Source: an uncultured bacterium (lineage in GTDB: Bacteria > Acidobacteriota > Thermoanaerobaculia > Multivoradales > JAHZIX01). Taken from it: a stretch of 64,000 nt of DNA. The stretch spans positions 1 to 64,000 of the forward strand of contig CBDUPA010000015.1 in NCBI GenBank assembly GCA_965368975.1, written 5' to 3'. The position numbers and the translations under genes are program-made. The notes beneath the pieces are model-generated. The model was not told the DNA's origin and searched no databases. It worked only from the letters and a program-made list of their open reading frames with translations. Below, piece after piece: positions 1-32,370 of the stretch (the first letter of the stretch is position 1; every line of letters begins with the position of its first letter).

Positions 1-253
1 CACCACGAGCGATCGCGGCCAGCTTTTCGCGCGCCTGATCGCGCGCATCCGCCAGGCTCATCACCGGGTAGACACCGAGGTTCAAGCGGCGCTTGCTGCC
101 GCTGGCACCCTTGTAGCGCACGATGAAGGTCTTGCGACCGCTCTTGGAGACACGCACTCCGAAGCCAGGCAGCTGGAGATCCCAATAGTCGGTCATCCAG
201 CGCCCGGCGGTGAAAGTGTCTATGTTGCGGTGGGTCAGGTGGGCTTTCGGCAT
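1..253 (-). CDS. Tyrosine integrase with N-terminal arm-binding domain; only the 5' part lies in the window
   Basis: Manual translation MPKAHLTHRNIDTFTAGRWMTDYWDLQLPGFGVRVSKSGRKTFIVRYKG... is nearly identical to the N-terminus of the integrase at 29432-30586. Confidence 0.9.
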   Translation of the reverse strand, partial: MPKAHLTHRNIDTFTAGRWMTDYWDLQLPGFGVRVSKSGRKTFIVRYKGASGSKRRLNLGVYPVMSLADARDQAREKLAAIARG

Positions 254-1252: not shown

Positions 1253-1255
1253 CGG

Positions 1256-1663
1256 TCAGCTCTCCAGATCCGGTGCGATACCCAGCTTCTCTTCGAGCCG
1301 CGCCGCCTGTGCGGCCAACTGGTCGGACACTTCGATGGCCAGCAGGTGGAACCGGGATAGCTCCGGGTCGTCGACGCTGCCCGGCTCGGCGCCGAGGTGG
1401 TGGATGTGGCCTTGAAGTTGACGCAGGTCTTCGAGCGCGGCGCGCAGGTCGGACTTGACTGGCACCTCGCCGCGTTCGCGGTAGGTCTCCTCGTGGAGCA
1501 AGGCGTTGTCGTAGAGCGTGACACCGACCCGGCGGAAGGCGTCGCGGATGTGGGCTTCCGGGTAGAGATGCAGGTACGTCTCGCGGAAGACGGCGTGGGC
1601 CTCCCACTGCGTCGGCTCGAGACTCGTCGATAGGGGATTGCTATGCTGCGGCTGGTCACTCAT
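1256..1663 (-). CDS. Conserved hypothetical protein of the integrase module
   Basis: Near-identical paralog at 31584-31994; AAGGAAGG-type RBS before ATG 1663. Confidence 0.8.
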   Translation of the reverse strand: MSDQPQHSNPLSTSLEPTQWEAHAVFRETYLHLYPEAHIRDAFRRVGVTLYDNALLHEETYRERGEVPVKSDLRAALEDLRQLQGHIHHLGAEPGSVDDPELSRFHLLAIEVSDQLAAQAARLEEKLGIAPDLES

Positions 1664-1722
1664 GGGACTTCCTTCCTTTGAGTGGCTAGGCCCGGTTCGG
1701 TGCTGGTACACCGGATCGGGCC
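1657..1722 (-). promoter_or_regulatory. Conserved two-hairpin leader covering the RBS/start of the integrase-module operon
   Basis: ggcccggttcggtg-loop-caccggatcgggcc plus cactca...tgagtg; both conserved at 31988-32054 with a different loop. Confidence 0.55.
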
Positions 1723-2001
1723 GCTTGGTTGAAGGGTGGGCTGGCCTGAGCTGGTAGCAGCTGGGATAGGGCCACCCGGTGAATCTGGTACCACTACAGC
1801 GGGACCGGGCGAGCTGTCAACCACATGAGCGGATGATCCATACGGCACTCAGGATCATAGACATCCTTCTCAAGAACTAGGACTACAGAAAACCTTCTTC
1901 GACACCGAGTCACGACCTGACCCAGTCTGCCAGGGTGGAGCGGCTTGCCGGGGTAAGATCTCGGGCGAACTGTTGAACGTCTTTTTAGTGGAGGTTTTCC
2001 G

Positions 2002-5000
2002 ATGCCTGTAGGGCCGCTGCCTTTTGAGACTCTCGATCCGAAGACATTCGAACGCTTCTGCTTTGCTCTGCTGGCGGCGGAGGGGCACTCCGAGCTGCGC
2101 CACTGGGGCGACGCCGGCAGCGAGAAGGGCTGCGACCTAGTCAGCGTCGACCAAGAGAAACGTCGAGTGGTCACGCAGTGCAAGCGGGTGAAGGAACTGG
2201 GACCGACCGATGCCGAGAAAGAGGTCGCCAAGGTTCTGGACCACCAGCCCGATCCCAGGCCGGAAGTCTGGTCGCTGCTGGCGACCTGTGCGCTATCCCG
2301 AGAGACGGAGAAACGCGTCAAGGCGAGAGTAGGGGACGGCTTCGAGACGGAGTTCACCGGCCGTACTGAACTCGAACACCGGGCCCGTAAGCATCCTCAT
2401 GTCCTGGAACTCTACTTCGGCTCCCCCTATCGCAACGATCCACCGTTGTGGTGGATTAGCGCCGCACCTCTGGATGAGCAATGGGCGCATGCGTTCGCGA
2501 AGGATCTGCAAGCCTGCCTGCGGAAGGTGAACCGCAAGGCGAACGTCGAAGTCGGGATTCCGTCGGACAAAGTGTCCTGGCCCGAGGTGCCCGAGACCGC
2601 GAGCGTTGGGATCGTCCTAGTATCCCCCGAGGCCCTGGCGCACAGCAGCTTGCGGCGACTTTGGAGGGAGAGTTTGTGCCAGCCATGCCTCCAGAGCGGC
2701 AAGCGCACGCTGCTGGCACTGGACTTCGCTGCAACCCCGTGGCCGGCATGGCTGCAGGAGCGCTTCGATCGCGTGGACTGGCCGGCAGACTCGGATAGCG
2801 ATGCCGATCCATATCGCATCAACCTGGCTCAGATCATCTCCAAATACATCGGACTCACGGAGAATGGCGACCTACCTGTATCCGTGAAGAGCCCCGATTC
2901 CATGTCGCGGCGGTTGCCGGAGAGCCTGCGCCAGCGCCTGGTCAATGCCGTAACACCCTTCGCGGGCAAGACCCACGAGTACCGAGCACTGGCTAGTGCC
3001 CTTGGACTCGACGGCCGCAAAGCTCTGGACGATTTCGAGACGGCTGAAGAGCGCGCCGCTGCCGCCTTGATCCTGGCTACCGGCGACGACGATCCCAGCG
3101 CTGCCGGGCAGCGCGTCCTTGCCATGATCCAGGATGAATTCCGCGACTCTCCGGCCGGCTTCGAGCATTTCGGTGCGTTACGCCGAGCGCTGCAGCGACA
3201 CCAAGCTTCTTTACCCCAGGAGCAGCAGCACGACCTGCTCAGCACCTGGCTCGAGTACATCGAGTCTACGCACCGCCGTCTCGTACCGGCTTTTCAACGA
3301 GACCAGGAACTGATTCTGCTCGATCGCGTCTACGTCGAGCTGCAACTGACTCCAGACCAGCAAGAGCGATTCACTGCCCGGCGGCTCCCGCAGCTGGAAG
3401 GTAGTGCCAGCCCTGACGGGGTGGTAGGGCACCGAGACGAGGAGCACTTGGCACACACCCAGTCCCTTGAAGAACTTCTCGCCCTTGACCCGGCTGACTA
3501 CTCCTGGGTCACCCGGCGCTGGATCGTGCGCGGCGACCCGGGCTCTGGCAAGACGACGCTGCTGCGCCACTTGGCCGCCAAGCTGGCCAAGGACTCGATG
3601 CGGCGCTGGGTCCCGCTGTTCCAATCCCTACCCGTCTTGCTGCGAGAGGGCAAGAACCTGCTCGAACGGGTCGAGACGCTGCTGGATGGCGAGGGCCTGA
3701 GCCGCGTGCTAGATCATGCGGGAGAGGAGGGACACCTGCTCGTTCTGCTCGACGGACTCGACGAAGTCGGCCCCGAGGTTCGTCCCCAGGCCGAGCAACA
3801 GATTCGCCGTCTCGCCGACCGCTGGCCGGAGACTCCGATCGTCGTCACCACCCGGCCGATCGGGTATCGGCGTTTCGCGGGAGACTTTCGAGAACTCCAA
3901 CTTCAGCCCCTCGATCACCAGCGCAGGCTTGGCTTCCTGGCTCGCTGGTTCGGTCGCAGCGAGGAAAAGGAAGATCACGAAAGAGCGATCACAGCTCTCC
4001 AGGAACTCGACGGTCCGGGCTTCGAAGAACTTGCCGGCAATCCGCTCTACCTGACCCTAATGGCCTTGCTGCTCGAGGATGATGTCTCACCGTCCCGCAA
4101 CCGCTCCAAGCTCTACGACCAGGTCTTTGAGCTACTGCTCGAAGGCAAGCACAAGCTAACCGCCCGCGACAAGAGCTTCGAGAAGATCCAGCGTCCGGAG
4201 CTGGTGCGCCAGGCGCTGCGCCTGCTCGCCGAGTCGATGACCTTCGACAACTGCGATGCCGAGCGCTTCGGAAAGCTGCAAGAGCGCTTGTATCGAGATG
4301 AGCTGGAGAGCGTGCGCGAGGAACTGCGCAAGGTGCATTGCTGGGACGGCAAGGTGGACCGCTTCCTGGAGGACATCGCCGAGAAGGTCGGCATCCTCGG
4401 CCCGCACGACGGTGAGGATGCGGACTGGCGCTTCTGGCACCGCACCTTCAAAGAGGCTCTGACCGCTGAGCGGATGGCCGAATGGGACTCGGAGAAGTTG
4501 CTGCAGCATGCGCATGACATCCAGGGGCAAGAGAGCCGCTGGGCCGAACCCTTCGCGTTGGTGTGCGGCGTCGTCGACGATGCGGATGCCTTGCTGAAGC
4601 AGTTGCTGGAGGCCAACCGAGATCTCGCTCTGCGCGCGCTGCCGACGGCGCAGAACGTCAGCGACGAAACGGTGCGCGAGGTGCTGGAACTGACGGACAA
4701 GTGGACCGAGCGCTCGAAGGTCTATGAGCAGTTGCCGGAGCTGGTCGGGGACCCGGAGCGCTGCTTGCGGCTGATCGATCGGCTGCGCCAGGGAGTTCGC
4801 AACGGCAATGACCTCTACTTCCTGGACCATGCGGCCTGGCAGGTGGGACAAGCCTCGGAAGGCCTGTGCGAACGAGCGGAAAACCTGCGGCACCGGATCT
4901 ACGACGAGTTGCCAAAGGTCGAGGATCCTGAGCTACTGCGCCGTTGGCGGCGCCCGGACGGCGAGGAGAAGGATCTGTGGTGTCGAGTTCCTGCGGGAGT

Positions 5001-5733
5001 CGGCTGGGTGGGTTCCCGAGACGATGAGGTCGACGACGATGACCCGCGAGGGCATGAGATGCCGCGGCATCGGGTCGAGGTTCAGGGGGACTGCTGGCTG
5101 TTGGCGGTACCGATCACGAATGCCGTGTACGCAGCGTTCGATCCGGGCAAGAACTCTCATCGTTGGAAAGGCATCGACCCAGAAGAGCTAGCTGCACACC
5201 CCCGGGTGCTTGTGACCTGGTACGAAGCGGTCTCTTTTTGCCGCTGGCTGGCCTGCCAGCCGGGTTTCGAGGGTGCGGCGCCCAGCCTGCCGGAAGAGGA
5301 AGTTTGGGAGTACGCGTGCCGGGCGGGATCGGAGACGCGGTATTGGAATGGCGAGGACGAGGAGCAACTGGCAGAGGTGGCTTGGTTCGGGGAGGACCCT
5401 CTCAAAGGGACCACACATCCTGTAGGTGGAAAGCTCGGCAACGAGTTCGGGCTCTACGATGTACACGGCAACGTCTGGGAGTGGACAGCTTCGGGCTTCG
5501 ACGAAGCACGCTACCAGGGGCGCACCTCAGACTCGCCACATCCGGTCGATCCGACGACCCACCCGGCAGATCTTGCCGCCTCCCCCCGCGTCGGGCGCGT
5601 GTTGCGCGGCGGCTGCTACGGGAGCACGGCTCAGCGGTGCCGGTCGGCGTACCGGCTCAGGAACGACCCGTGGGACGGGTGGAACGAGAACGGGTTCCGC
5701 GTGCTGCTGTCCTCCGCCCCGAGCGGCCTTTGA
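2002..5733 (+). CDS. DGR target 1: Mrr-like restriction endonuclease + TIR-like + NACHT NTPase + C-terminal FGE-sulfatase (CLec-fold) domain
   Basis: FERFC...GCDL...QCK nuclease-like motif; Walker A GDPGSGKTT, Walker B LLVLLDGLDE; WEYACRAG, GLYDVHGNVWEW, RGG...GFR FGE motifs; GGAGG RBS. Confidence 0.9.
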   Translation: MPVGPLPFETLDPKTFERFCFALLAAEGHSELRHWGDAGSEKGCDLVSVDQEKRRVVTQCKRVKELGPTDAEKEVAKVLDHQPDPRPEVWSLLATCALSRETEKRVKARVGDGFETEFTGRTELEHRARKHPHVLELYFGSPYRNDPPLWWISAAPLDEQWAHAFAKDLQACLRKVNRKANVEVGIPSDKVSWPEVPETASVGIVLVSPEALAHSSLRRLWRESLCQPCLQSGKRTLLALDFAATPWPAWLQERFDRVDWPADSDSDADPYRINLAQIISKYIGLTENGDLPVSVKSPDSMSRRLPESLRQRLVNAVTPFAGKTHEYRALASALGLDGRKALDDFETAEERAAAALILATGDDDPSAAGQRVLAMIQDEFRDSPAGFEHFGALRRALQRHQASLPQEQQHDLLSTWLEYIESTHRRLVPAFQRDQELILLDRVYVELQLTPDQQERFTARRLPQLEGSASPDGVVGHRDEEHLAHTQSLEELLALDPADYSWVTRRWIVRGDPGSGKTTLLRHLAAKLAKDSMRRWVPLFQSLPVLLREGKNLLERVETLLDGEGLSRVLDHAGEEGHLLVLLDGLDEVGPEVRPQAEQQIRRLADRWPETPIVVTTRPIGYRRFAGDFRELQLQPLDHQRRLGFLARWFGRSEEKEDHERAITALQELDGPGFEELAGNPLYLTLMALLLEDDVSPSRNRSKLYDQVFELLLEGKHKLTARDKSFEKIQRPELVRQALRLLAESMTFDNCDAERFGKLQERLYRDELESVREELRKVHCWDGKVDRFLEDIAEKVGILGPHDGEDADWRFWHRTFKEALTAERMAEWDSEKLLQHAHDIQGQESRWAEPFALVCGVVDDADALLKQLLEANRDLALRALPTAQNVSDETVREVLELTDKWTERSKVYEQLPELVGDPERCLRLIDRLRQGVRNGNDLYFLDHAAWQVGQASEGLCERAENLRHRIYDELPKVEDPELLRRWRRPDGEEKDLWCRVPAGVGWVGSRDDEVDDDDPRGHEMPRHRVEVQGDCWLLAVPITNAVYAAFDPGKNSHRWKGIDPEELAAHPRVLVTWYEAVSFCRWLACQPGFEGAAPSLPEEEVWEYACRAGSETRYWNGEDEEQLAEVAWFGEDPLKGTTHPVGGKLGNEFGLYDVHGNVWEWTASGFDEARYQGRTSDSPHPVDPTTHPADLAASPRVGRVLRGGCYGSTAQRCRSAYRLRNDPWDGWNENGFRVLLSSAPSGL
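5584..5724 (+). repeat. DGR variable repeat VR1
   Basis: 5584-5658 and 5692-5724 differ from TR only at TR adenines (10 changes); 5659-5691 does not align with TR. Confidence 0.8.
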
Positions 5734-5744
5734 AGTTTGATCAT

Positions 5745-6039
5745 TGATCTTAGAGAGTGTGGATGAAGCTGGCAGGCCGGCAGGGCTTGCCGGCCGACTC
5801 GGCCGTTTCTGCCGGCAGTAGATCGCCAGAGTTCGCCAGATCGCCAGAATACTTGCCAAGGCGAGCCAGATTGGGCGGGTCGTATCCGGCAATATCTGCC
5901 GCGCTTGGCACCCGAGCCACCTGAGTTCTGACCGTCAACAGCGCAACTTTACCGGCCTTCTCAGGGTTCCAGCCGATCTTGCCAGGGTTGCCGGCAAGAC
6001 TTGCCACCCGCACCTGGCAAGCCGGCCAAACATGCCACC
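5745..6039 (+). repeat. ~290-bp non-coding element downstream of VR1 (copy 1)
   Basis: Co-linear with the reverse complement of 7741-8035, roughly 75-80% identical by eye; starts tgatc(t/a)tagagagtgtgg. Confidence 0.85.
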
Positions 6040-7035
6040 TCAGAACAGAATGATGCCAACGCTGGAGGCGATGGTCCGTTCCAATTCGACGTCCAAGCTG
6101 CCGTCGAGATGCTGGCGGATGCGGCGGTGCAAGCGCCGCAAGGGGCGCTTCAGACAGTGGATATCCTGGCGCGAGATCCGGTGGCCCAGGGCGTTGAGAT
6201 GACCATGGCACGAGACGATACGGGCTTGCGGGTGCTTTAAGCGCAGACCGCGCTCGGCCATCAGCCACTCAGCGATCCTCTTGCGCCAGCGCTCCAGCTT
6301 GCGGCGACCGTCGGCGAAATAGAAGGTGTCGTCGAGAAAGCGCAAGTAGGCCGGTACCTTCAGCTGCCGCTTGACCCAGTGGTCGAAGCCGTTGAGGTAG
6401 ACGTGTGCCGCCAGCATCTGGCTGCTGTGGGCGCCGATCGGCAAGCCACGACCCGGCGGAGGCCAGTCGGGGTCGAGCCCAGCCAGCTTGCGCAGCTCCG
6501 GGTGCCCGTGTAGCTCGTCACCGATCGCGAGCAACCGAGCGACGAGATCCAGGAACCTGACGTCCCGAATGCGCCGACTCAGCAAGGCGAGCAGGATGTC
6601 GCGGTCGATCGACGGAAAGTAGGAGCGGACGTCCAGGTGCAGGGCAAAGCGGTAGCGGCGTTGAAACTCCTGCAGGCGCAGCACCGCCCGGTGCGTGCCG
6701 TAGCCCGGACGGCAAGCGTAGTCGTCGTGGGTGTAGGTCGGCTCGAAGATCGGGTCGAGCTGGTGCACCACCGCGGTCTGCACGATGCGGTCGCGCAGCA
6801 GGGTGCGGGCGATGACGCGCGGCTTGGGATCGCGGATCGAGACGAAGTCACAGGGCTGCGGCCGGTAGGTGCCCGCCGACAACTCGGCCTGCAGATCCTC
6901 CAACTGCTCCTCCAGGGTGAAGAGGAACCAGGCCACGTCTCGCCTCCGACGCTTGCCGCGCGTCGTCTCCCTGGCTGCCCGCTCCAAGGCACAGGGCTGG
7001 CAAAGGCGCTCGAAGAGGCCGGAGGTTGTACGCAT
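6040..7035 (-). CDS. DGR-type reverse transcriptase
   Basis: DPKPRVI...RDRIVQ, YACRPGYGTH, LDVRSYFPSID, DGR-type GLPIGAHSSQ, LRFLDD, LGHRI; adjacent TR/VR pair. Confidence 0.95.
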   Translation of the reverse strand: MRTTSGLFERLCQPCALERAARETTRGKRRRRDVAWFLFTLEEQLEDLQAELSAGTYRPQPCDFVSIRDPKPRVIARTLLRDRIVQTAVVHQLDPIFEPTYTHDDYACRPGYGTHRAVLRLQEFQRRYRFALHLDVRSYFPSIDRDILLALLSRRIRDVRFLDLVARLLAIGDELHGHPELRKLAGLDPDWPPPGRGLPIGAHSSQMLAAHVYLNGFDHWVKRQLKVPAYLRFLDDTFYFADGRRKLERWRKRIAEWLMAERGLRLKHPQARIVSCHGHLNALGHRISRQDIHCLKRPLRRLHRRIRQHLDGSLDVELERTIASSVGIILF

Positions 7036-7117
7036 GGTGCGAGGCCAGCACACCCGGGCGCTCAGCCAGCTGATCCAGCCGGCCTACGAGGACGGGCGGC
7101 ACACACGTGGACCAGGA

Positions 7118-7636
7118 CTAGGACTGGGGTCCACGGACGGGAACAGGCCTGCTCGGGACGCCCGGCCACAACGGCCGGAGTCGCGGGTTCGGGGCGGAGG
7201 ACAGCAGCACGCGGAACCCCTGGTTCCTGGTCCTGATCCTGGACTCGATGGCAGGATCGTCAGCGTTCCGGTACGCCGACCGGCACCTCTGTGCCGTGTT
7301 CCTGTAGCTGCCGCCGCGCATCACGCGCCTGACGCGGGGTGGCCCGTTCCCTGAAGTTGAAATTCGTTGACTGGTGGTAGCTGGGAGCGCTCGACACGCT
7401 TGCGCCAGCCGCTGTGCCGACCGTGCCGGCAGAGCGTGCTCCACCACCAACCGCACCTGATCCGCCTTGGCTTGGAGACCGCGCCGCTGTGCGTCGGTGA
7501 GTGGCAGGTTCGACCGATCGATCCACCAGCGTCCATCTCGCTTCACACCCGGCAGATCGCCACGGGCCAGCTGGGCCCGAACAGTGCGTGGACTGCGGCC
7601 CATCAGAGTGGCGGCGGCGCGGGTGGAGAGTTCCAT
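7118..7636 (-). CDS. Excisionase-like HTH protein whose frame runs through the TR (putative DGR accessory gene)
   Basis: MELSTRAAATLMGRSPRTVRAQLARGDLPGVKRDGRWWID is an HTH_17/MerR-like winged-HTH pattern; it occupies the usual avd position upstream of TR and RT. Confidence 0.7.
   Translation of the reverse strand: MELSTRAAATLMGRSPRTVRAQLARGDLPGVKRDGRWWIDRSNLPLTDAQRRGLQAKADQVRLVVEHALPARSAQRLAQACRALPATTSQRISTSGNGPPRVRRVMRGGSYRNTAQRCRSAYRNADDPAIESRIRTRNQGFRVLLSSAPNPRLRPLWPGVPSRPVPVRGPQS
7186..7341 (-). repeat. DGR template repeat (TR)
   Basis: Adenine-rich master copy of both VRs just upstream of the RT; all 10 differences from VR2 are at TR adenines. Confidence 0.95.
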
Positions 7637-7740
7637 GACTTTGCTCTCTAATGGTTAGTTTTCGCCTGCTCTATGTATTTAGACGCTCCTCGGCAGCGGA
7701 GTGTTAATTTGCCGTGTTCGGTGTCAACGGTGTGCACCTC

Positions 7741-8035
7741 CGGCGGCAGGATTTGCCGGCTTGCCAGCGCGGACGGCAATTCTTGCCGGCAGCCCTGGCA
7801 GGATAGGCCGAAACGCTGAGCTGGCCGGCAAAGTTGCGCTGTTGGCAGCCAGACCTGAGGTGGCTCGGATGCCAGGAGCGGCAGATCTTGCTGCGTGCGG
7901 GTGCCCAATCTGGCCGGCCGCTGGCGAGGGTTGCGGCGACTTGGCTAAGTCTGCCGACTTACTGCCGGCAAGATCGGCCAGGGCAGCCGGCAAGCCGTGC
8001 CGGCCTGCCGGGTTCACCCACACTCTCTATGATCA
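7741..8035 (-). repeat. ~290-bp non-coding element downstream of VR2 (copy 2)
   Basis: Inverted homolog of 5745-6039; begins a few bases after the target-2 stop codon. Confidence 0.85.
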
Positions 8036-8040
8036 AAGGC

Positions 8041-11000
8041 CTACTGCCGGCTCGGGGCGGAGGACAGCAGCACGCGGAACCCCTGGACCCTGGTCCAGAA
8101 CCTGGACACGAAGGCAGGATCGTCAGCGTTCCGGCACGCCGACCGGCACCTCTGTGCCGAGTTCCAGTAGCTGCCGCCGCGCATCACGCGCCTGACGCGG
8201 GGTGAGGCGGCAAGATCTGCCGCTGGCGCGGCAGGATCAACCGAATAGGTGCCCTCAGACGGCCGCTTCTTGTACCGTTCCGCATCCCACTCGGAGAGCG
8301 CCCACTCATACACATTGCCATGCAGGTCGTAGAGGCCCCACGGATTCGCAGGCTTGCCAGCAACCTGGTGGGTTCGAGAACCTGAGTTTTCGGTATACCA
8401 GCCGACCTCTGCCAGCTGCTCCTTCCCATCCCCCTTCCAGAACCTCGTTTGCGCCCCGGCCCGGCAAGCGTACTCCCACTCTTCTTCCTCAGGTAGCCGC
8501 ACACAACAGCCTGCGAACTCCTTCAAGCTCTCCAGCCAGCGGCAGAACGACACGGCTTCGTACCAAGTGACGTTGACCCGAGGGTGTGCCGATAGCTTCT
8601 CTTGCTCGACTCCTTCCCACGTCTTCGGCGCCTTGCCTGGATCGAAGGCCGCGTACTGTGCATTGGTTACCGGCACCACGCCCATCCAGTAGGGCCGCAC
8701 CATCTTCACCCGATATCGAGGCCCTTCGTCGTCGTCTCTATCTTCCTCAGCCTCCGGACTCCCGACCCATCCCTCTCCTTCTGGAATCTCCCTCCACAGC
8801 GGCACCCGGCCATCCAACTTGGACTCGACGCTCTGGAACAACTCCGCATCCTTCGGTGCCGGGATGTGTTCGAAGAACCGATCCAGCACGTCTGCCACCC
8901 GCGACTCTGCCTTCCACCGTCGCCCGGCTTCCTCGGCAATCCACCACAGCCAGAACAGGTCGAAGCCGTTGCGCTCTCCTTGCCGCAGCTGCTCTACCAG
9001 GGCCAGACAGGCGTCTGGATCGCCGAGTTGGTCCGGGATGCTCTCGAAGACCTGTGCCCGCTCGTCCAGGTCCTCGGTCAGGTTCAGCGTCCGCCGTACC
9101 GTCTCCGGCTCCAAGCCCTGGGCGAAGACCGCCGCGCGTACCGCGAGCTTGGGGTTCGCCTCCCCCAGCTGCAACAGCAGACCGTCGGCATGATCCATCC
9201 CACCTGCCAGCAAAGCCAGCGGCTCCCCCCAGCGTCCCTCGCCGCCTTCTTCCAGTTGCCGAGCCCACTCCAGCAGAGCCTCGCCGCCACTCCTCTCGGC
9301 GTAATGCTCCTTCAAGCGCTCTGCTGCAAGGGCTTCGCGAAAGGTCCGGTGCCAGAAGCGCCAGTCGCCGCGACCACCGTCGTGGGGCCCCAGGATCTGC
9401 GTGCGCTCGTGGACGTCGTCTAGGAAGGTGAAGAGATTCCGCTTCCAAGCCGCAACGAGGCCCAAGCGACCACACAACTCTTCCGCTGTCCGTAGCCGCC
9501 CTTCGAGCTTCTTGTTCGCTTCGGCCCAGCAATCATCCTCAGTCATACCAAAGGCCAGGTGCTGCAGCGCCTCGCGGACAGCGTCTTGGTTTGGCATCGG
9601 CTGCGGCTCACGCCGATGCTCGCCGTCGAGCAGCAGTTCGAAGATCTTGGCGTACAGCTCGGCCAGCCTGCCGGAGGGCTGAACTCCTTGCTCCCAGAGT
9701 ACCGCCAGCAACGTCAGGTAGAGCGGGATGCCGCTCAGGTCTCGCAGGCCGCGTGTTTCCGTGAGGTAGGTAATCGCCTGCGCTGCTTCCACTTCGGGCG
9801 TCCACTCCGGTTCTTCGCGATGCGCAGGTTGCCCTGCGTGCTCGAACCAGGTTTCGAGGAACTCCTGGCGCCGAGCGACATCCAGAGGTAGAAGGTCGAG
9901 CCGTGGCAACTCGTCCAGTGCCTGTCCGCGGCCGATGGGTCGGCTACTCACGACCACCTTGCACTTGGACCACGCTTCGTCCTCTCGAAGCTGGGTCAGA
10001 AGTCGGCGTGCTGGGGCTCGGCGTTCCCGTGGAATCTCGTCAAAGCTGTCGAGCAGCAGTAGCAGGCGACCTTCTCGGCCGGCAGCTGCCAGAGCGTCGC
10101 GTACTGGGGAGAGGTTGGCCAGGCCGAGGCCGTCGGTGGCGTGAGTCAGAAGCTCCTGGCCTGTCTCGATCAGGCGAGGAAGCGAGACGAAGACCGGGAT
10201 GGCATCGTGGCTGCGCTCGCGGGCCAGCCGTGCTGCCAGGTGACGCAGGAGCGTCGTCTTGCCGGAGCCCGGCGGACCTTCGAGCAGCCACCGGCCTTCG
10301 TTCCAGCTCGGGGTGCCGATGGGCCAGTCGAGCACCTTGTCCAGCGTCGTCGGATGGCCGAGGAGCTTGCCGTCTTCGACATCCTCACTCCGCACGCCTC
10401 GTCCGGACTGGTGGTGGGCAGGCATGACCTTGACTTCGACCCAGGCTTGCTCGATCAGGTGCAGTTCGGCAGGGCGGTCGAAGTGGTCGCCGAGGCGGCG
10501 GTGCTCGGCCTCGACCTGGCCGAACCAGACGTCGAGCGGATCGGGTGGTTTCGGGGTCTTCGGCGTCGTTGTGGTGGTAGCGGTGGAGGGCTCGGGCGCG
10601 ACTGTGGCTTTGAGGAGTGCTTGCAGCACGTCACCAAGAGCGCTGTGGTCCTGGTGCTGCTTACCGTCGGCATCGACCGAAGTCTCTACCGGGTAGAAGA
10701 CCGCCCGCAGGTGAAACGGCTCTTCGACTTCAGCCCGATACACCTCGACGGCCTCCAACTGATCCTCAGCGAGCCCCATCAACGCCACGTGCCGCGCGTC
10801 TCCGACCTTGCGTGTATCGGCTCGGGACAGGGCTTGGTCGGCCGTCAAACGAAGCCAGGCATCTTGGAAGCTGAAGCCGACGATCACCAACTGCTCGCGC
10901 GTCCACAGCTGCTCGAAGAGCTGGCGGTAGCGCTCGTCCCCGTAGGCACACCGGTAGTCCTCGGCACCCAGGATCACGCTGTCCTTGTCGTCGTACTGCC

Positions 11001-11523
11001 CGTGCGCGTGCAGGATCGGAGTTTCGCCGTCCTCGGCCGGCCGGTCTTGGAGCCAGAGGCCAACACGGTCGTGCCGCCAGCCGAAGTCGTGGACGATCTG
11101 CCTCGGCCGCTCGGCCTGGCAGGCAAAGGTCAACGCGGGGTCGTAGTTGGTGGTCACGAAGGAGCGGAAGCCGAGCCGGGCGAGCGCGGCATGCGTCGCG
11201 GTGTAACGCAGGCCATCGGCGGTCTTCTTGGGACCGAACAGTCCACGAATCTCCTCCGCAAACTTTCCTTCCCCGAGCCGCTTGCGCAGTTGCAGAGCTG
11301 CCTGCAGAGGGTCGACCTGGCCGCACCAGGCCTTCTTCAGCGCCGCTGGTGCACCGCCGGCAACAGCAGCATCGGCCAGATGCTCGATCAACTGGGACCA
11401 CAGCGGATAGAGACCGGCGGACGCGCCAGCTCCGACAAAGCCGACAGCCTTGCCCGTCCTCAGAATGCCGAGGCAGGTCTCAAGCGCGCCTTTGTTGCCA
11501 GGAATGTCTTGCCAGGAAATCAT
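8041..11523 (-). CDS. DGR target 2: SIR2-like + NACHT NTPase + C-terminal FGE-sulfatase (CLec-fold) domain
   Basis: GFVGAGAS, TTNYD, HAHG, VGFSFQD (SIR2-like); GPPGSGKTT and LLLLLDSFDE; WEYACRAG, GLYDLHGNVYEW. Confidence 0.92.
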   Translation of the reverse strand: MISWQDIPGNKGALETCLGILRTGKAVGFVGAGASAGLYPLWSQLIEHLADAAVAGGAPAALKKAWCGQVDPLQAALQLRKRLGEGKFAEEIRGLFGPKKTADGLRYTATHAALARLGFRSFVTTNYDPALTFACQAERPRQIVHDFGWRHDRVGLWLQDRPAEDGETPILHAHGQYDDKDSVILGAEDYRCAYGDERYRQLFEQLWTREQLVIVGFSFQDAWLRLTADQALSRADTRKVGDARHVALMGLAEDQLEAVEVYRAEVEEPFHLRAVFYPVETSVDADGKQHQDHSALGDVLQALLKATVAPEPSTATTTTTPKTPKPPDPLDVWFGQVEAEHRRLGDHFDRPAELHLIEQAWVEVKVMPAHHQSGRGVRSEDVEDGKLLGHPTTLDKVLDWPIGTPSWNEGRWLLEGPPGSGKTTLLRHLAARLARERSHDAIPVFVSLPRLIETGQELLTHATDGLGLANLSPVRDALAAAGREGRLLLLLDSFDEIPRERRAPARRLLTQLREDEAWSKCKVVVSSRPIGRGQALDELPRLDLLPLDVARRQEFLETWFEHAGQPAHREEPEWTPEVEAAQAITYLTETRGLRDLSGIPLYLTLLAVLWEQGVQPSGRLAELYAKIFELLLDGEHRREPQPMPNQDAVREALQHLAFGMTEDDCWAEANKKLEGRLRTAEELCGRLGLVAAWKRNLFTFLDDVHERTQILGPHDGGRGDWRFWHRTFREALAAERLKEHYAERSGGEALLEWARQLEEGGEGRWGEPLALLAGGMDHADGLLLQLGEANPKLAVRAAVFAQGLEPETVRRTLNLTEDLDERAQVFESIPDQLGDPDACLALVEQLRQGERNGFDLFWLWWIAEEAGRRWKAESRVADVLDRFFEHIPAPKDAELFQSVESKLDGRVPLWREIPEGEGWVGSPEAEEDRDDDEGPRYRVKMVRPYWMGVVPVTNAQYAAFDPGKAPKTWEGVEQEKLSAHPRVNVTWYEAVSFCRWLESLKEFAGCCVRLPEEEEWEYACRAGAQTRFWKGDGKEQLAEVGWYTENSGSRTHQVAGKPANPWGLYDLHGNVYEWALSEWDAERYKKRPSEGTYSVDPAAPAADLAASPRVRRVMRGGSYWNSAQRCRSACRNADDPAFVSRFWTRVQGFRVLLSSAPSRQ
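8049..8204 (-). repeat. DGR variable repeat VR2
   Basis: Ungapped match to TR (offset 863) with 7 A>T and 3 A>G changes. Confidence 0.95.
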
Positions 11524-11641
11524 GCACCCAACTACTCGTCACAGAATCTACTGGCCATCTTACCTCCGGTACGACCGGAACACCGCTGCTCGGGCCAGCC
11601 AACTCTCTGGGAAGCGGTAGGCCCAGCCAGCGCCAAGAAAA

Positions 11642-11965
11642 TCAGCCCACAGAACCAGGGTTGAAGTTCTGTAGCCGACCCTGCAGCCGCGTGGGATTCC
11701 GTGACTGATGGAAGACCGCAAAGATATAGACGAGGGCTGGTTCCTGGACGACGTAGTAGAAGACGGAATACGGGAAGCGGTTCAGCGGTGCTCGCCGAAT
11801 CCCCCGGTGCTCCACGGAATAGAGCTGAGGATTCTGCGTGATCCGCGTGACGGTGCGCTGCAGCTCATCGCGCAGAGCCACCCCCAAGCCAGGGCTCTCG
11901 TTCTCGTACCAGTCGCGCGCTTCTCGGAGCTCATCGAGCGCTTCGGCGTCGAACTCGACCCTCAT
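11642..11965 (-). CDS. RelE/ParE-family toxin
   Basis: EALDELREARDWYE...IRRAPLNRFPYSVFY...IFAVFHQSRNP pattern; ATGA overlap with the antitoxin. Confidence 0.9.
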   Translation of the reverse strand: MRVEFDAEALDELREARDWYENESPGLGVALRDELQRTVTRITQNPQLYSVEHRGIRRAPLNRFPYSVFYYVVQEPALVYIFAVFHQSRNPTRLQGRLQNFNPGSVG

Positions 11966-12186
11966 TCGTCGGGCCAGAGCTGCGCCTTGGCTTCTTCCCA
12001 GCTCACACTCTGGCGAGAACCGGCCAGGAAACCGTCGAGCCGCTGGTCCAGCGTCCGGCGCTGAGCCTCAGTCAGAGACGATTCCGCCGTCTCTTGCTCT
12101 ACACTGCTCCAAAGCGACTGAGCCAGCTTGGCCCGCTCATCGATCGAGAGCCTCAGAGCTTCGTCTTGAAGTTGAGTCAGTGTCAT
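11962..12186 (-). CDS. Addiction-module antitoxin
   Basis: EALRLSIDERAKLAQSLWSSV...LDQRL...VSWEEAK pattern directly upstream of the toxin; start reassigned to ATG 12186. Confidence 0.85.
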   Translation of the reverse strand: MTLTQLQDEALRLSIDERAKLAQSLWSSVEQETAESSLTEAQRRTLDQRLDGFLAGSRQSVSWEEAKAQLWPDE

Positions 12187-12306
12187 GCTGGCTAGAATAC
12201 CACGCAGCCTGGGAGACACCGTCAGCATCGCAGGCCAAGCCGAACTGGCGAGAGCATTGCACCAAATTTCATGCCAGCAGGCCCCGATGGAGGCCCGCAC
12301 CACGGC

Positions 12307-12335
12307 TTGCCATTCAATTGATGAGCAGCTACAAT
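12307..12335 (+). promoter_or_regulatory. Putative sigma70 promoter in the element arm, facing the att site
   Basis: TTGCCA-17nt-TACAAT; the second copy is TTGACA-17nt-TACAAT at 32236-32264. Confidence 0.55.
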
Positions 12336-12366
12336 AGTCTAAGTATTGGAAATAAAGAGGTTGGAC

Positions 12367-12414
12367 TGGAGCCGACGACCGGGTTTGAACCGGTGACCTG
12401 CTGATTACGAATCA
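12367..12414 (-). repeat. att site: duplicated 3' 48 nt of tRNA-Thr
   Basis: Identical to 32296-32343; identity ends just past the anticodon arm. Confidence 0.95.
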
Positions 12415-13146
12415 AATGAGCTAGGTATTACGTCGAATTTCGACAGCTCGTAGGGGGGCGCACGTCTCACCGTTAAGTACTGAGATGACTAGGCTTGGAG
12501 TGTTGCAAGGGCTGTCAGGAGGCTCCGTCAAGTTAACGTCTTGGCAGACCCTTCGCAGGACCCACTTGCCCCGCCTGAGACCCGCCCAGACTAGTCGCGG
12601 TGTCAGAGCGCCATCCCAGCTAGTTGGGCACCGTGGAGCACAAAGGCTGATAATCTGACGAAAGTATGTTCCGCCAGCGCCCGAAATGCACCTGCATCGA
12701 CATTTCGACCTAATACTGACTCGACAAAGCTCTGTCTGTTGCTGTCTAAGGGAGATCTCCTCTACTAGGTCTGCTATTTCGCTATTTCCTCTGGCTCCTG
12801 GTGTGGTGTACTCTCAAGAGAGAGACTATGGCATTCTCTCTTTGGGCCTCGATGCCGGGGTGACCGCTCTGAGCAAGCATGGTAGCAAGCCAAAAGTCAG
12901 CTCAGTTACTAACCATCTCCAATGCGTCCAATAACCGGCGAGCCGATGAGCCGAAATAACCGGAACTGGAAGCATTGATATTCGAGATGACATTTGGTAG
13001 CTTGAACAAATCTTACTAATTGGAGCAGAAATTTCAGCAGGTGTTCAGGGTAATAGTAGGAGCTTCCGCCAGTACACGGCTCGAACCCCAAGTTGGACCT
13101 AGGCTCGACTCTCTGACTCCAAGTACGACTCTCGAAGGAGATAACA

Positions 13147-13863
13147 TTGATCGAGAACGAATTTTCTTTGGTTGAAAGGGCAGATCATCTTCATGCTGCA
13201 GGGAAGCAGCAGCAACTGCTCGAGCTTGCTGAGACAATCTGGCCTGCTCCTGAGCAAGCCGAGATTCTTCCGGGGACTGCTGAGGTCTGCCGCTACACGT
13301 TTCTTCTCTTGAAAGGCAGAAGAGACAGCCGGGCATTTCTATGGTTTGCCAGAGCGCTAACTGCAGCTGTCTTGACTGGTGCAAGGGATACAGCTGCGGG
13401 GCTTGTTCTGCGCGATTTCTTTGTTTCTCTAGAAGAGGGCGACCATGATTCTGCCCGCCTTGTCCTTGATGAAGTTCGGCGCTTAGTAGACATGGATAGC
13501 CCACGGGCTGACCTCTTCAGGGGACGCATCTACCACGAGAAGTATGCATACTCCCTCGCCCTAGAGGGGAGATTTAACGAAGCCTGCGATCACTATCAAC
13601 TGGCTGCTCGGTACTGCCGGAATGATCCTCGAGGACGGCTCAAAGTCGAAGGTGGTGCGGTGATTGCAGGCTACCTTGCTCTGGAGAGGATGGATCATGA
13701 AGCTCTGAAGAGCGAGGCTCTCTTATTTATTGAGAACATGAAGAAAATTCAGGCTGCAGCGAGTGCCGCTGGATTCGTCGAAGTTGAGAGAACTGCTGCT
13801 AGGAATTTGGCACTGATGCAGACCGCCAGTTTCTCGCCTTGGTTTCCTTTTGAGACTACTTGA
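13147..13863 (+). CDS. Hypothetical helical-repeat (TPR-like) protein
   Basis: 238-aa ORF with TPR-like AYSLALEGRFNEACDHYQLA; TTG start after GAAGGAG. Confidence 0.65.
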   Translation: MIENEFSLVERADHLHAAGKQQQLLELAETIWPAPEQAEILPGTAEVCRYTFLLLKGRRDSRAFLWFARALTAAVLTGARDTAAGLVLRDFFVSLEEGDHDSARLVLDEVRRLVDMDSPRADLFRGRIYHEKYAYSLALEGRFNEACDHYQLAARYCRNDPRGRLKVEGGAVIAGYLALERMDHEALKSEALLFIENMKKIQAAASAAGFVEVERTAARNLALMQTASFSPWFPFETT

Positions 13864-32295: not shown

Positions 32296-32370
32296 TGGAG
32301 CCGACGACCGGGTTTGAACCGGTGACCTGCTGATTACGAATCAGCTGCTCTACCACTGAGCTACGTCGGC
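32296..32370 (-). tRNA. tRNA-Thr(CGT)
   Basis: GCCGACGTAGCTCAGTGGTAGAGCAGCTGATTCGTAATCAGCAGGTCACCGGTTCAAACCCGGTCGTCGGCTCCA forms a cloverleaf with anticodon CGT and encoded CCA. Confidence 0.98.

What the first reader, a model, noticed from the sequence alone, without database searches (positions are those of the whole stretch)
2002..11523. Mobile DGR that hypermutates the sensor tips of two NLR-like (NACHT) proteins with different effectors
Seen: the layout target1(+) > < RT < TR/HTH < target2(-). Both targets are effector-NACHT-FGE/CLec proteins ending in a VR; one has an REase/TIR-like N-terminus, the other SIR2-like. Known: DGRs mutate TR adenines into CLec-fold VRs (Bordetella phage BPP-1 paradigm); bacterial NACHT proteins with SIR2, TIR or nuclease effectors act in anti-phage defence; DGR-diversified putative antigen sensors have been reported in multicellular bacteria. 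Inference: a self-contained, transferable adaptive-like immune receptor generator carried on a tRNA-integrating element.
Basis: partly seen in the sequence, partly recalled or inferred. Interest (0 to 1): 0.92.

Follow-up and report, generated by a model that had tools for sequence, protein, structure and literature searches.

The report
Decaying DGR flanked by NLR-like sensors
A real mutation-generating retroelement sits between two bacterial immune-receptor-like genes, but this copy has lost a helper gene, its template now matches only one of the two genes, and the general kind of system is already described.

Summary
The layout is real. T1 (2002-5733,+; Mrr_cat, TIR-like, NACHT, FGE/CLec) and T2 (8041-11523,-; SIR2_2, NACHT, FGE/CLec) converge on a DGR reverse transcriptase (6040-7053,-) and a template repeat (TR 7183-7341,-).

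TR and VR2 (8046-8204) differ at 11 positions, 10 of them TR adenines (P about 9e-8). VR1 (5584-5724) is only partly templated. Its first 74 nt show 8 A-only changes and its last 31 nt are identical. Its middle is 12 nt shorter and has 14 non-A mismatches.

Related cassettes in two genomes of the same order carry a bAvd-like gene and a full HTH gene upstream of TR. Their TRs template all their VRs. Here a clean deletion of about 674 nt has removed avd. A paralogous cassette on contig C9 has also lost TR, and a third on C2 has no RT at all.

The cassette lies inside a tandem tRNA-Thr island, between a tRNA fragment and a RadC-integrase module, so "mobile" is plausible. "Self-contained" and "mutates both tips" are not supported.

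DGR-diversified NACHT-CLec pairs were described by Doré et al. 2024. I rate this a new member of a known kind and moderately interesting. The points of interest are the SIR2 and Mrr heads, the series of decaying copies and a 13-nt motif that brackets the VRs. No read data could be obtained.

The parts
2..253 (-). N-terminal 84 codons of a P4-type integrase, cut by the contig start (island B)
   Evidence: tblastn: 90% identical to residues 1-84 of the integrase at 29432-30586. The window begins at the contig start.
263..1252 (-). RadC-like JAB protein of the island module
   Evidence: Pfam RadC E 1.5e-25. 12 full-length copies in the genome at 70-100% identity.
1256..1711 (-). 151-aa protein of unknown family, first gene of the island module
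   Evidence: No Pfam hit. Repeated together with RadC and the integrase at 31584-31994 and on many contigs.
2002..5733 (+). Target 1 (T1): Mrr_cat nuclease head, TIR-like region, NACHT NTPase, FGE-type CLec
   Evidence: Pfam. Walker A GSGKT 514-518 and Walker B LLDGLDE 582-588. E17, D45 and Q59-C60-K61 are invariant in 9 homologues. TIR_2 hits 3 of 9 homologues.
5565..5577 (+). Exact copy of the 13-nt motif GGCAGATCTTGCC at the 5' edge of VR1
   Evidence: The same motif lies 5' of the VRs with complete 5' edges in G000, G002 and G038.
5584..5724 (+). VR1, T1 residues 1195-1241: diversified in the past, middle not templated by the present TR
5744..6011 (+). Conserved 3' flank of T1, with a hairpin at about 5782-5802 and 4 motif copies
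   Evidence: 79-83% identical to the T2 flank (pairs I1 and I2). Hairpin and pair counts. Motif copies.
6040..7053 (-). DGR reverse transcriptase, 337 aa
   Evidence: RVT_1; PADLOC RT E 1.1e-42. IGAHSSQ 206-212 and FLDD 239-242. D141, D241, D242, S211 and Q212 are invariant in 6 RTs.
7054..7182 (-). Spacer between TR and RT
   Evidence: Part of the 7423-7076 tract that aligns to the G002 cassette at 74.6% identity.
7183..7341 (-). Template repeat (TR), 'long form'
   Evidence: 29 A in 159 nt. 27 of the 28 in-frame A sit at codon position 1 or 2, and no A-containing codon can mutate to a stop.
7342..7423 (-). Remnant of the 3' end of a deleted bAvd-like gene
   Evidence: blastn to the G002 cassette. 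tblastn: 60% identity over 25 aa to the Avd C-terminus.
7424..7427 (-). Deletion junction: 4 nt here against 674 nt in G002 (HTH C-terminal half plus most of avd)
7428..7636 (-). N-terminal part of the HTH_17 accessory gene. The ORF 7118-7636 reads on through the avd remnant and the TR.
   Evidence: Pfam HTH_17. The full-length homologue in G002 is about 196 aa.
7769..8036 (-). Conserved 3' flank of T2, with 4 motif copies
8046..8204 (-). VR2, T2 residues 1107-1160, templated by the present TR
   Evidence: 10 of 11 mismatches lie at TR adenines. 8 codons are changed within the repeat (1120, 1122, 1130, 1138, 1139, 1142, 1143, 1146) and two more at the 3' boundary (1158, 1159).
8209..8221 (-). 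Exact copy of the 13-nt motif at the 5' edge of VR2
8041..11523 (-). Target 2 (T2): SIR2 head, NACHT NTPase, FGE-type CLec
   Evidence: Pfam. GAGAS 31-35, TTNYD 124-128 and H174 align to the KomC SIR2 NADase at E 1.2e-6. Walker A 419-423 and Walker B 490-496. The CLec model has pLDDT 92 and matches FGE, PvdO and TvpA.
11642..11965 (-). ParE-family toxin gene next to T2, inside the same island segment
   Evidence: Pfam ParE_toxin E 3.5e-12.
12258..12423 (-). att-type repeat: 3' 57 nt of tRNA-Thr (12367-12423) plus 109 nt of island-end sequence. It marks the junction of island A and island B.
   Evidence: 92% direct repeat of 32187-32352.
32296..32370 (-). Intact tRNA-Thr(CGU), anchor of the island array
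   Evidence: ARAGORN.

Best explanation
This is a cellular diversity-generating retroelement (DGR) of the kind that diversifies NLR-like STAND proteins, caught in a state of decay.

How an intact cassette works, as seen in two related genomes: an operon HTH_17 gene - bAvd-like gene - TR - RT makes a TR RNA. RT with Avd copies it into cDNA that is error-prone at adenines. The cDNA replaces the last 140-160 nt (VR) of convergent target genes.

The targets are tripartite NACHT NTPases. Their C-terminal FGE-type C-type-lectin tip is the varied ligand-binding surface. Their N-terminal heads (SIR2 NADase in T2; Mrr-type nuclease plus a TIR-like region in T1) would be triggered by ligand-driven oligomerisation. 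This is an abortive-infection-type sensor and is inferred, not shown.

In this genome:
- The present TR has rewritten VR2 since TR acquired a remodelled, 12-nt-longer middle.
- VR1 still carries the older short form, so it has not been rewritten since that change.
- A deletion of about 674 nt has then removed avd and the C-terminal half of the HTH gene.

By the Bordetella phage paradigm, in which bRT alone makes no cDNA, the element is probably no longer able to diversify on its own. T1 and T2 would now be receptors with fixed specificities.

The cassette is cargo of one unit of a tandem tRNA-Thr island array.

Shown: anatomy, the A-specific TR/VR2 pattern, the VR1 mismatch, the avd deletion, intact catalytic motifs, the island context. 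Inferred: present inactivity, the immune role, the order of events.
For: DGR identity:
- RT hits.
- Catalytic D141, D241-D242 and S211-Q212 are invariant across 6 RTs.
- TR/VR2: 10 of 11 mismatches at A, P 9e-8. No TR codon can become a stop. 27 of the 28 in-frame A lie at codon positions 1 or 2.

VR1 is only partly templated:
- 5' segment: 8 mismatches at A, 0 at non-A.
- Middle: 7 at A, 14 at non-A, plus 12 gap columns.
- 3' 31 nt: identical.

Relatives:
- Layout T1> <RT <TR <avd <HTH <T2 in G002 (RT 73% identical) and G038 (RT 61%).
- Their TRs template the whole VR. Mismatches at A versus non-A are 14/0, 18/10 and 9/2 in G002, and 13/2 and 13/5 in G038.

Avd identity:
- Pfam bAvd E 2.4e-8 and 1.5e-9, both below the gathering score.
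- A profile of 5 such genes hits only BPP-1 Bbp7/Avd in the PDB (E 2.5e-5 and 1.2e-4).

The deletion:
- C15 7428 and 7423 abut positions that lie 674 nt apart in G002.
- The only other Avd homologue in the 99.3%-complete assembly belongs to a different DGR on C16, about 35% identical.

Paralogues:
- C9 lacks TR, avd and the conserved RT N-terminus.
- C2 has two convergent CLec genes and an HTH gene but no RT or TR.

Targets.

Island.

Avd requirement: Handa et al. [quoted passage not shown]
Against: - Wu et al. 2018 (PMC5758913, passages read) report DGR architectures without accessory genes and one RT lineage that lacks avd. Loss of avd therefore does not prove inactivity.
- RT, TR, the TR-RT spacer and about 80 nt upstream of TR are intact and conserved. 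T1 and T2 are intact ORFs.
- The C16 Avd could act in trans.
- VR2 differs from TR at only 9 of about 27 internal A positions. This says nothing about when the last homing event took place.
- The 1.15-kb tract that is 100% identical between C15 and C9 shows recent exchange, or an assembly problem that could also affect the deletion calls.
- No population data were obtained.
- No evidence at all bears on ligand, phage or phenotype.
Confidence: 0.62

Rival explanations
1. One reading: a fully active, self-contained DGR that currently hypermutates the tips of both T1 and T2.
For: RT motifs are intact. TR design is intact. Both VRs keep the 31-nt GC-rich 3' block identical to TR and an A-only pattern in the first 74 nt, so a TR cDNA could in principle still home into VR1.
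Against: The middle of VR1 has 14 non-A mismatches and is 12 nt shorter than TR, so no homing from the present TR is recorded there. The avd gene is deleted, whereas both related cassettes keep it.
Confidence: 0.1
2. The element is still active on T2 only. Either this RT lineage tolerates loss of Avd, or the Avd of the separate, complete DGR on contig C16 serves it in trans.
For: VR2 matches the remodelled TR with A-only changes. The core DGR RNA region is conserved. Avd-less DGR architectures exist. A complete DGR with avd is present in the same genome: C16, with 22 of 27 and 22 of 39 mismatches at TR-A.
Against: The C16 Avd is only about 35% identical to the cassette-type Avd, and its RT is about 40% identical. 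In the one system tested biochemically, RT needs its own Avd. Two further paralogous cassettes in the genome are plainly dead, which suggests a trend toward loss.
Confidence: 0.22
3. The NACHT-CLec proteins are not anti-phage sensors. They serve kin or non-kin recognition, or another signalling role, with the DGR tuning self/non-self specificity.
For: Doré et al. 2024 raise this alternative (discussion passage on heterokaryon-incompatibility-like roles). The genome holds many different CLec-tipped signalling proteins, including kinase and Metallophos heads.
Against: The SIR2, Mrr-nuclease and TIR-like heads and the neighbouring TIR-SIR2, nSTAND1 and ParE genes in an integrase island are the usual company of defence systems. 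Neither role has been tested.
Confidence: 0.15
4. The apparent deletions and the 100%-identical tract are assembly artefacts of a repeat-rich draft, and the real locus is intact.
For: The window starts at a contig end inside a repeated integrase. C15 and C9 share 1.15 kb at 100% identity, flanked by sequence at 70-90%.
Against: The C15 junction lies in unique sequence about 370 nt beyond the identical tract. The two copies have different deletion end-points. No avd fragment of this type exists anywhere in the assembly, even on small contigs.
Confidence: 0.07

Closest known systems
DGRs of 'clade 5D' and Thiohalocapsa PB-PSB1 DGR 3/6 (Doré et al. 2024, PMC10907252; passages read)
   Same: [quoted passage not shown] N-terminal effector heads vary. 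The targets are proposed to be antigen sensors.
   Different: The heads here are SIR2_2 and Mrr_cat plus a TIR-like region. An HTH_17 accessory gene is present here. This copy has lost avd, and its TR fits only one target. Membership of clade 5D by RT phylogeny was not tested.
Bordetella phage BPP-1 DGR (mtd-avd-TR-brt)
   Same: A-specific TR-to-VR transfer into a C-terminal CLec fold. A GC-rich identical block at the 3' end of VR. In relatives, avd lies immediately upstream of TR and overlaps it. The Avd profile hits BPP-1 Avd.
   Different: Chromosomal or island-borne rather than phage-borne. Two convergent targets that are cytoplasmic-type NTPases rather than a tail-fibre protein. An extra HTH gene. 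avd is deleted in this copy.
Antiviral STAND / bacterial NACHT proteins (Avs, bNACHT; known to me through Doré's text, and from recall)
   Same: Tripartite effector-NTPase-sensor architecture. Walker A and B intact. SIR2, nuclease and TIR heads.
   Different: The sensor is a DGR-variable CLec domain rather than TPR or other repeats. No phenotype is known.
Treponema denticola TvpA (PDB 2y3c) and formylglycine-generating enzymes
   Same: The T2 CLec model (pLDDT 92.2) matches 2y3c (E 2.2e-17, TM 0.75) and FGE/PvdO (E about 1e-17).
   Different: TvpA is a lipoprotein without an NTPase or an effector. FGE is an enzyme. Here the fold is a C-terminal module of an NLR-like protein.
KomC and ThsA SIR2 NADases
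   Same: The T2 head aligns to KomC (E 1.2e-6) with GAGxS, TTNYD and the His that the depositors mutated (H146) all conserved. PADLOC LmuA and ThsA SIR2 models also hit.
   Different: Fused to NACHT-CLec. NADase activity has not been tested.

Membership tests
Diversity-generating retroelement | Reverse transcriptase of the DGR type with intact catalytic aspartates and the xGxxxSQ motif (the motif definition is recalled) | tested here: met
   RVT_1. PADLOC RT E 1.1e-42. IGAHSSQ 206-212 and FLDD 239-242. D141, D241, D242, S211 and Q212 are invariant in 6 RTs, and F/Y alternate before the DD.
Diversity-generating retroelement | A TR/VR pair whose differences lie at TR adenines | tested here: met
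   VR2: 10 of 11 mismatches at A, P 9e-8. VR1: met only in the first 74 nt (8 of 8 at A) and not in the middle (7 A, 14 non-A, 12 gap columns).
Diversity-generating retroelement | VR at the C-terminus of a C-type-lectin-fold target | tested here: met
   FGE-sulfatase Pfam hits. The AF2 model has pLDDT 92.2 and matches TvpA and FGE. The VRs cover residues 1107-1160 of T2 and 1195-1241 of T1.
Diversity-generating retroelement | Accessory variability determinant (Avd) next to TR | tested here: not met
   Present in the G002 and G038 cassettes. Here only an 82-nt 3' remnant remains after a 674-nt deletion. A profile search of the whole genome finds only the C16 Avd. Avd is not universal among DGRs.
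Diversity-generating retroelement | Ongoing diversification in a population | not testable with these tools
   No sequencing run was listed.
Bacterial NLR-like (NACHT/STAND) defence proteins | NACHT NTPase with Walker A and B between an N-terminal effector and a C-terminal sensor | tested here: met
   NACHT scores 49.3 and 63 bits against a cut-off of 26.7. GSGKT and hhhhD(G/S)xDE motifs. Effector heads and the CLec tail.
Bacterial NLR-like (NACHT/STAND) defence proteins | Protection against phage, or ligand-triggered effector activity | not testable with these tools
DGR clade 5D of Doré et al. 2024 | Placement of the RT inside that clade in an RT phylogeny | not tested
Only the architecture matches.
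SIR2 NADase effector | NAD-binding glycine motif plus the catalytic Asn and His | tested here: met
   GAGAS 31-35, N126 within TTNYD, and H174 aligned to KomC H146. The catalytic role of the Asn is recalled.
Mrr-type PD-(D/E)xK nuclease | Acidic residues plus the (E/Q)xK motif | tested here: met
   Mrr_cat hits 9 of 9 homologues. E17, D45, Q59 and K61 are invariant in 9 sequences. Assigning these residues to the motif is my own reading.
TIR domain | Pfam-level match and a conserved catalytic Glu | tested here: inconclusive
   T1 itself has no TIR hit even at E up to 10. 3 of 9 homologues hit TIR_2, best E 8.4e-6. The Glu after the SPEAL strand is not conserved in the alignment.
tRNA-integrating genomic island (P4-type integrase) | Direct repeat of a tRNA 3' end bounding a segment that contains an integrase | tested here: met
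   12258-12423 repeats 32187-32352 at 92% identity, including 57 nt of tRNA-Thr. The integrase/RadC module lies at 1-1741. The far end of this island unit lies beyond the contig start and was not seen.

The most novel reading that the evidence does not exclude
DGR-diversified NLR-like receptors go through a 'diversify, then freeze' life cycle.

Within one genome there are four stages:
- a complete DGR on C16;
- an avd-less copy whose remodelled TR serves only one of two targets (this window);
- a copy lacking TR and avd (C9);
- an RT-less pair of convergent CLec genes with only the HTH gene left (C2).

Repeated, independent deletion of the mutator would fix useful receptor specificities, which integrase islands then spread.

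In addition, the 13-nt near-palindrome GGCAGATCTTGCC brackets the VRs in this lineage: one copy at the 5' edge and about 4 copies in the 270-nt 3' flank. Together with the lineage-specific HTH_17 protein, it may form a target-marking or regulatory module not yet described for DGRs.
Probability: 0.25. Interest if true: 0.7.

Novelty: new member of a known kind. Interest (0 to 1): 0.45.

Why it matters
If DGR-varied CLec tips on NACHT proteins are antigen sensors, they are the nearest bacterial analogue of anticipatory receptor diversification. That idea is in print but untested.

This locus adds two directly assayable effector heads, a SIR2 NADase and an Mrr-type nuclease, on one sensor chassis. 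These would make activation easy to read out.

The comparison of four cassettes in one genome, plus intact relatives, gives a natural series for two questions. Is Avd needed in this RT lineage? Are receptors fixed after diversification? It also shows that a change in TR can uncouple one of two targets.

As it stands, it is a well-characterised member of a known class and not a new kind of system.

Tried and rejected
- Population variation: the look-up of sequencing runs on window 4800-9000 listed no run (none was listed, which is not the same as none exists). Read laying was therefore not used, and nothing can be said about ongoing mutation or expression.
- Rfam on 1-13000 at E up to 0.1 gave 0 matches.
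- The promoter and terminator consensus scans on 5600-8200 found 0 sites each.
- The conserved 3' flank of the targets was folded. An 8-bp hairpin about 55 nt past VR is kept in 7 copies, but 4 of its 8 pairs are invariant in all 7 copies. Across the whole predicted structure only 4 of 15 pairs show a double change. The 171-nt DNA fold is no better than shuffles (z -0.62). I make no structural claim.
- The antisense ORFs in the flanks (5750-6268 and 7701-8195) have no Pfam hit, and one runs into the VR antisense strand. I treat them as non-coding.
- Pfam on T1 residues 135-505 at E up to 10 gave only a chance-level hit. phmmer of T1 residues 1-300 against the PDB gave nothing meaningful.
- A second TR of the 'short form' was sought by blastn of TR against the whole assembly. 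There were 6 hits: TR itself, 4 VRs and a weak C18 match. No second TR was found.
- The C2 pair of VR-like ends was tested as a TR/VR pair and rejected, because the mismatches are spread over all four bases.
- I did not run complex prediction for RT with the C16 Avd. A pass would largely reflect likeness to the solved bRT-Avd complex, and a miss would carry no weight.
- Supplements of Doré 2024 and Wu 2018 were closed. They may list SIR2 or nuclease heads, or HTH accessory genes, that I could not see.
- Literature searches run. No paper in the searched library has DGR together with SIR2 in its title or abstract (6 papers hold both terms in the text).

Full report
ANATOMY.

The window is the first 64 kb of a 173-kb contig (C15) of a 7.13-Mb, 65.4% GC draft genome in 59 contigs.

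Between 2002 and 11523 lie four genes:
- T1, 2002-5733 (+), 1243 aa.
- A reverse transcriptase, 6040-7053 (-), 337 aa.
- An ORF, 7118-7636 (-), 172 aa.
- T2, 8041-11523 (-), 1160 aa.

Pfam gives:
- T1: Mrr_cat (9-83), NACHT (506-651), FGE-sulfatase (994-1235).
- T2: SIR2_2 (121-253), NACHT (413-562), FGE-sulfatase (913-1151).
- The RT: RVT_1.
- The 172-aa ORF: HTH_17 at residues 3-44 (26.5 bits, just under the cut-off of 27).

The PADLOC RT model scores E 1.1e-42. T1 and T2 are paralogues, 43% identical over about 858 aa covering NACHT to the C-terminus, with unrelated heads.

TR AND VRs.

A 159-nt direct repeat joins 7183-7341 (TR, inside the 3' part of the HTH ORF) to 8046-8204 (VR2, the last 54 codons of T2).
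- They differ at 11 positions, 10 of them TR adenines. TR has 29 A in 159 nt, so hypergeometric P = 9e-8.
- The last two differences lie at the 3' boundary.
- 27 of the 28 in-frame adenines sit at codon position 1 or 2, and no A-containing codon can mutate to a stop.

This is the signature of a DGR.

VR1 (5584-5724) behaves differently:
- Its first 74 nt differ from TR at 8 positions, all TR adenines (P 8.5e-8).
- Its last 31 nt are identical to TR.
- Its middle is 12 nt shorter, with 7 mismatches at A and 14 at other bases in 36 aligned columns (P 0.64).

VR1 was therefore diversified by a DGR in the past, but its present sequence cannot have been copied from the present TR.

PARALOGUES AND RELATIVES.

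The whole cassette recurs on contig C9, where C15 1949-11457 aligns with C9 144607-135484.
- T1' is 74% and T2' 80% identical in protein.
- From 5778 to about 6930 (the T1 3' flank plus most of the RT) the two copies are 100% identical, against 59-93% in the other windows of the cassette. This means recent gene conversion or an assembly problem.
- C9 has no TR, and its RT has a different N-terminus that lacks the conserved GKRRR-DVAWF block.
- The two C9 VRs and VR1 share the 'short' middle. Only VR2 has the 'long' middle of the present TR.

The RT has matches at E <= 1e-20 in 11 of 41 genomes searched in the same order, this genome included. The two closest are G002 (RT 73% identical) and G038 (61%). 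One public record of G038 is labelled a Thermoanaerobaculia MAG. Both have the same layout.
- Their TRs are of the short form.
- Their TRs template the whole length of their own VRs. Mismatches at A versus non-A are 14/0, 18/10 and 9/2 in G002, and 13/2 and 13/5 in G038.

THE MISSING ACCESSORY GENE.

Between the HTH gene and TR, G002 and G038 each carry a further gene of about 130 codons.
- It hits Pfam bAvd at E 2.4e-8 and 1.5e-9, both below the gathering score of 40 bits.
- A profile of five such genes finds only two PDB sequences, and both are the Bordetella phage Avd (4dwl at E 2.5e-5; 8ub7 at E 1.2e-4).
- Their HTH protein is about 196 aa.

At the DNA level:
- C15 7621-7428 aligns to L017 2651-2458, and C15 7423-7076 aligns to L017 1783-1456.
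- Four bases in C15 therefore stand where G002 has 674 nt, a stretch that holds the C-terminal half of the HTH gene and most of avd.
- Only an avd 3' remnant of about 82 nt is left upstream of TR.
- C9 carries a different, larger deletion, running from the HTH gene at about codon 103 to RT codon 41.

tblastn and a profile search of the whole 99.3%-complete assembly find one other Avd. It lies on C16, is about 35% identical, and belongs to a separate canonical DGR with the order target-avd-TR-RT-target. There, 22 of 27 and 22 of 39 mismatches lie at TR-A.

A further locus on C2 has two convergent CLec-tipped genes, TIR/SEFIR-Pkinase-FGE and Metallophos-NACHT-FGE, with an 80-aa HTH_17 gene between them. 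It has no RT, TR or avd, and its VR-like ends differ at all four bases.

For the Bordetella phage element, Handa et al. 2018 (passages read) report that bRT alone has no reverse-transcriptase activity and needs Avd. Wu et al. 2018 (passages read) report DGR architectures without accessory genes and one RT lineage that lacks avd. Loss of avd is therefore strong but not conclusive evidence of inactivity.

THE TARGETS.

Motifs and residues:
- T1 and T2 keep Walker A (GSGKT at 514-518 and 419-423) and Walker B (LLDGLDE at 582-588; LLDSFDE at 490-496).
- The T2 head aligns to the KomC SIR2 NADase (E 1.2e-6) with GAGAS, TTNYD and H174 conserved. H174 aligns to the His that the depositors mutated.
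- In 9 full-length T1 homologues (50-100% identical), E17, D45, Q59 and K61 are invariant, and Mrr_cat hits all 9.
- TIR_2 hits 3 of those 9 over the region corresponding to T1 residues of about 150-290. T1 itself does not hit, and the expected catalytic Glu is not conserved.

Architectures among the 49 proteins found with T2:
- 7 have SIR2_2-NACHT-FGE.
- 12 have TIR_2 on the same NACHT-FGE chassis.
- 1 has PNP_UDP_1 and 1 has CHAT.

Heads are therefore swapped on a common sensor body.

An AlphaFold2 model of T2 residues 906-1160 (29-row alignment, pLDDT 92.2) matches PvdO, formylglycine-generating enzymes and the Treponema DGR variable protein TvpA (2y3c, E 2.2e-17, TM 0.75). The block with the lowest confidence in the fold (model residues 231-240, mean pLDDT 74) covers four of the varied codons.

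CONTEXT.

- An intact tRNA-Thr lies at 32296-32370.
- Its 3' 57 nt, plus the adjoining 109 nt, are repeated at 12258-12423 at 92% identity.
- A three-gene module (unknown 136/151-aa protein, RadC-like JAB, P4-type integrase) lies at 31994-29432 and again at 1711 to the contig start, at 75-89% nucleotide identity.
- The genome holds 12 full-length RadC copies of this module, many on small contigs.

The window therefore holds two units of a tandem island array:
- Unit A (12.4-32.2 kb, GC 50-55%) carries a TIR-SIR2 protein, an nSTAND1-pentapeptide protein, radical-SAM and ATP-grasp genes, a carbamoyltransferase, a Liv-type ABC transporter and two integrases.
- Unit B begins at the tRNA fragment (12367-12423). 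It carries a ParE toxin gene and the DGR cassette, about 10.5 kb lying between the att-proximal repeat and the module. Its integrase runs off the contig.

The GC content of the cassette (63-66%) is that of the genome and not that of unit A. The C9 copy has no such module nearby. 'Carried on a tRNA-integrating element' is thus supported, although the far end of the unit was not seen. The cassette itself has no mobility genes.

A REPEATED MOTIF.

GGCAGATCTTGCC, allowing up to 2 mismatches, occurs 13 times in the window, against 2.5 expected and a maximum of 7 in 100 shuffles. Ten of the 13 lie in the cassette:
- one exact copy 6-7 nt before each VR (5565-5577 and 8209-8221);
- four copies in each 270-nt 3' flank.

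The two flanks are 79-83% alike. The motif occupies the same places in the C9, G002 and G038 cassettes. It is absent from those places in the two Planctomycetota relatives (one loose match each, elsewhere), in the C16 DGR (one loose match, elsewhere) and in the C2 locus (no match). The TRs lack it. The copy at the VR edge lies in conserved codons (ADLAA), so protein constraint contributes there. The flank copies are non-coding. A binding site for the HTH_17 protein is a reasonable guess that I could not test.

MECHANISM.

Shown:
- a DGR whose TR has rewritten VR2;
- two intact NLR-like genes with plausible catalytic heads;
- a deletion of avd.

Inferred:
1. In intact relatives the HTH-avd-TR-RT operon produces adenine-mutagenised cDNA that replaces the CLec tips of both convergent targets.
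2. In this lineage the middle of TR was remodelled (12 nt longer). VR2 was rewritten afterwards and VR1 was not.
3. avd was then lost, leaving the receptors fixed.
4. The receptors act by ligand-induced NACHT oligomerisation that switches on NAD+ depletion (T2) or DNA cleavage (T1).

I put about 0.6 on the element being unable to diversify on its own now. I put about 0.2 on residual activity at VR2, with or without the C16 Avd, and about 0.1 on full activity at both targets.

COMPARISON WITH WHAT IS KNOWN.

- Wu et al. 2018 already list DGR targets that combine Toll-like receptor, NTPase and metallophosphatase domains with FGE-sulfatase.
- Kaur et al. 2020 link DGR-varied FGS domains to conflict systems.
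- Doré et al. [quoted passage not shown]
- Among 80 loci fetched with an RT profile, tblastn found a CLec relative in 57, a T1-type NACHT in 16, Avd in 11, the HTH gene in 3, the Mrr head in 1 and the SIR2 head in 0.

This locus is therefore a new member of a known kind. Its particular points are:
- the SIR2 and Mrr heads;
- the HTH_17 accessory gene;
- the uncoupling of one target by TR change;
- the within-genome series of cassettes that have lost the mutator.

LIMITS.

- No read data were obtained.
- No experiment was possible.
- Supplements were closed.
- Clade membership was not tested.
- The draft assembly could not be checked.

Noticed in passing
window 5778-6930 and G000:C9 about 139641-140790: About 1.15 kb (the T1 3' flank plus nearly all of the RT) is 100% identical between the C15 and C9 cassettes. 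The other windows of the cassette are 59-93% identical. The tract ends where the C9 deletion begins. This means recent gene conversion or an assembly artefact.
   Followed up: partly
window 5565-5577, 5779-6005, 7745-7979, 8209-8221; also L001, L016, L017: The 13-nt near-palindrome GGCAGATCTTGCC (up to 2 mismatches) occurs 13 times in the window against 2.5 expected. 10 copies bracket the two VRs. It holds the same positions in the G002 and G038 cassettes but not in the Planctomycetota relatives, C2 or C16. It may be a binding site for the HTH_17 protein.
   Followed up: partly
L002 (G000:C16:86000-100000), about 3000-11200: A separate, canonical and apparently complete DGR: NACHT/nSTAND1-FGE target, avd (6141-6521), AAC-rich TR (6587-6717), RT and a second FGE target. 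22 of 27 and 22 of 39 mismatches lie at TR adenines.
   Followed up: partly
L003 (G000:C2:334000-352000), 9751-16290: An RT-less look-alike of the cassette: TIR/SEFIR-Pkinase-FGE (+) and Metallophos-NACHT-FGE (-) converge on an 80-aa HTH_17 gene. The two C-terminal ends are 87% alike over 164 nt, and their mismatches are not biased to A.
   Followed up: partly
window 12424-32295: A low-GC (50-55%) island unit next to tRNA-Thr. It carries a TIR-SIR2 protein (18748-20910), an nSTAND1-pentapeptide-repeat protein (16526-18745), radical-SAM and ATP-grasp genes (14001-16512), a carbamoyltransferase, a Liv-type ABC transporter and two tyrosine integrases (27543-28451, 29432-30586).
   Followed up: partly
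window 1-1741 and 29432-32073; many small contigs of G000: The module of unknown protein, RadC-like JAB and P4-type integrase recurs at least 12 times in the genome at 70-92% protein identity, often at contig ends and next to copies of the tRNA-Thr att repeat. This indicates a large family of tandem islands that fragments the assembly.
   Followed up: partly
window 11642-12303: A ParE-family toxin gene (11642-11965) with an overlapping upstream 113-aa ORF (11962-12303, not scanned). The pair lies between T2 and the att repeat and is probably a toxin-antitoxin pair that stabilises the island.
   Followed up: no
L017 (G002:C4) 6748-8754: The G002 cassette has a third VR-bearing gene with SIR2_2 and FGE domains but no NACHT (P0025, 678 aa). 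An effector can therefore be fused directly to the varied CLec tip.
   Followed up: no
L021, L022 (Planctomycetota MAG records): The next-closest RTs (52-53% identical) are in another phylum and keep the HTH, avd and NACHT/CLec neighbours. This points to horizontal spread of this cassette type.
   Followed up: no
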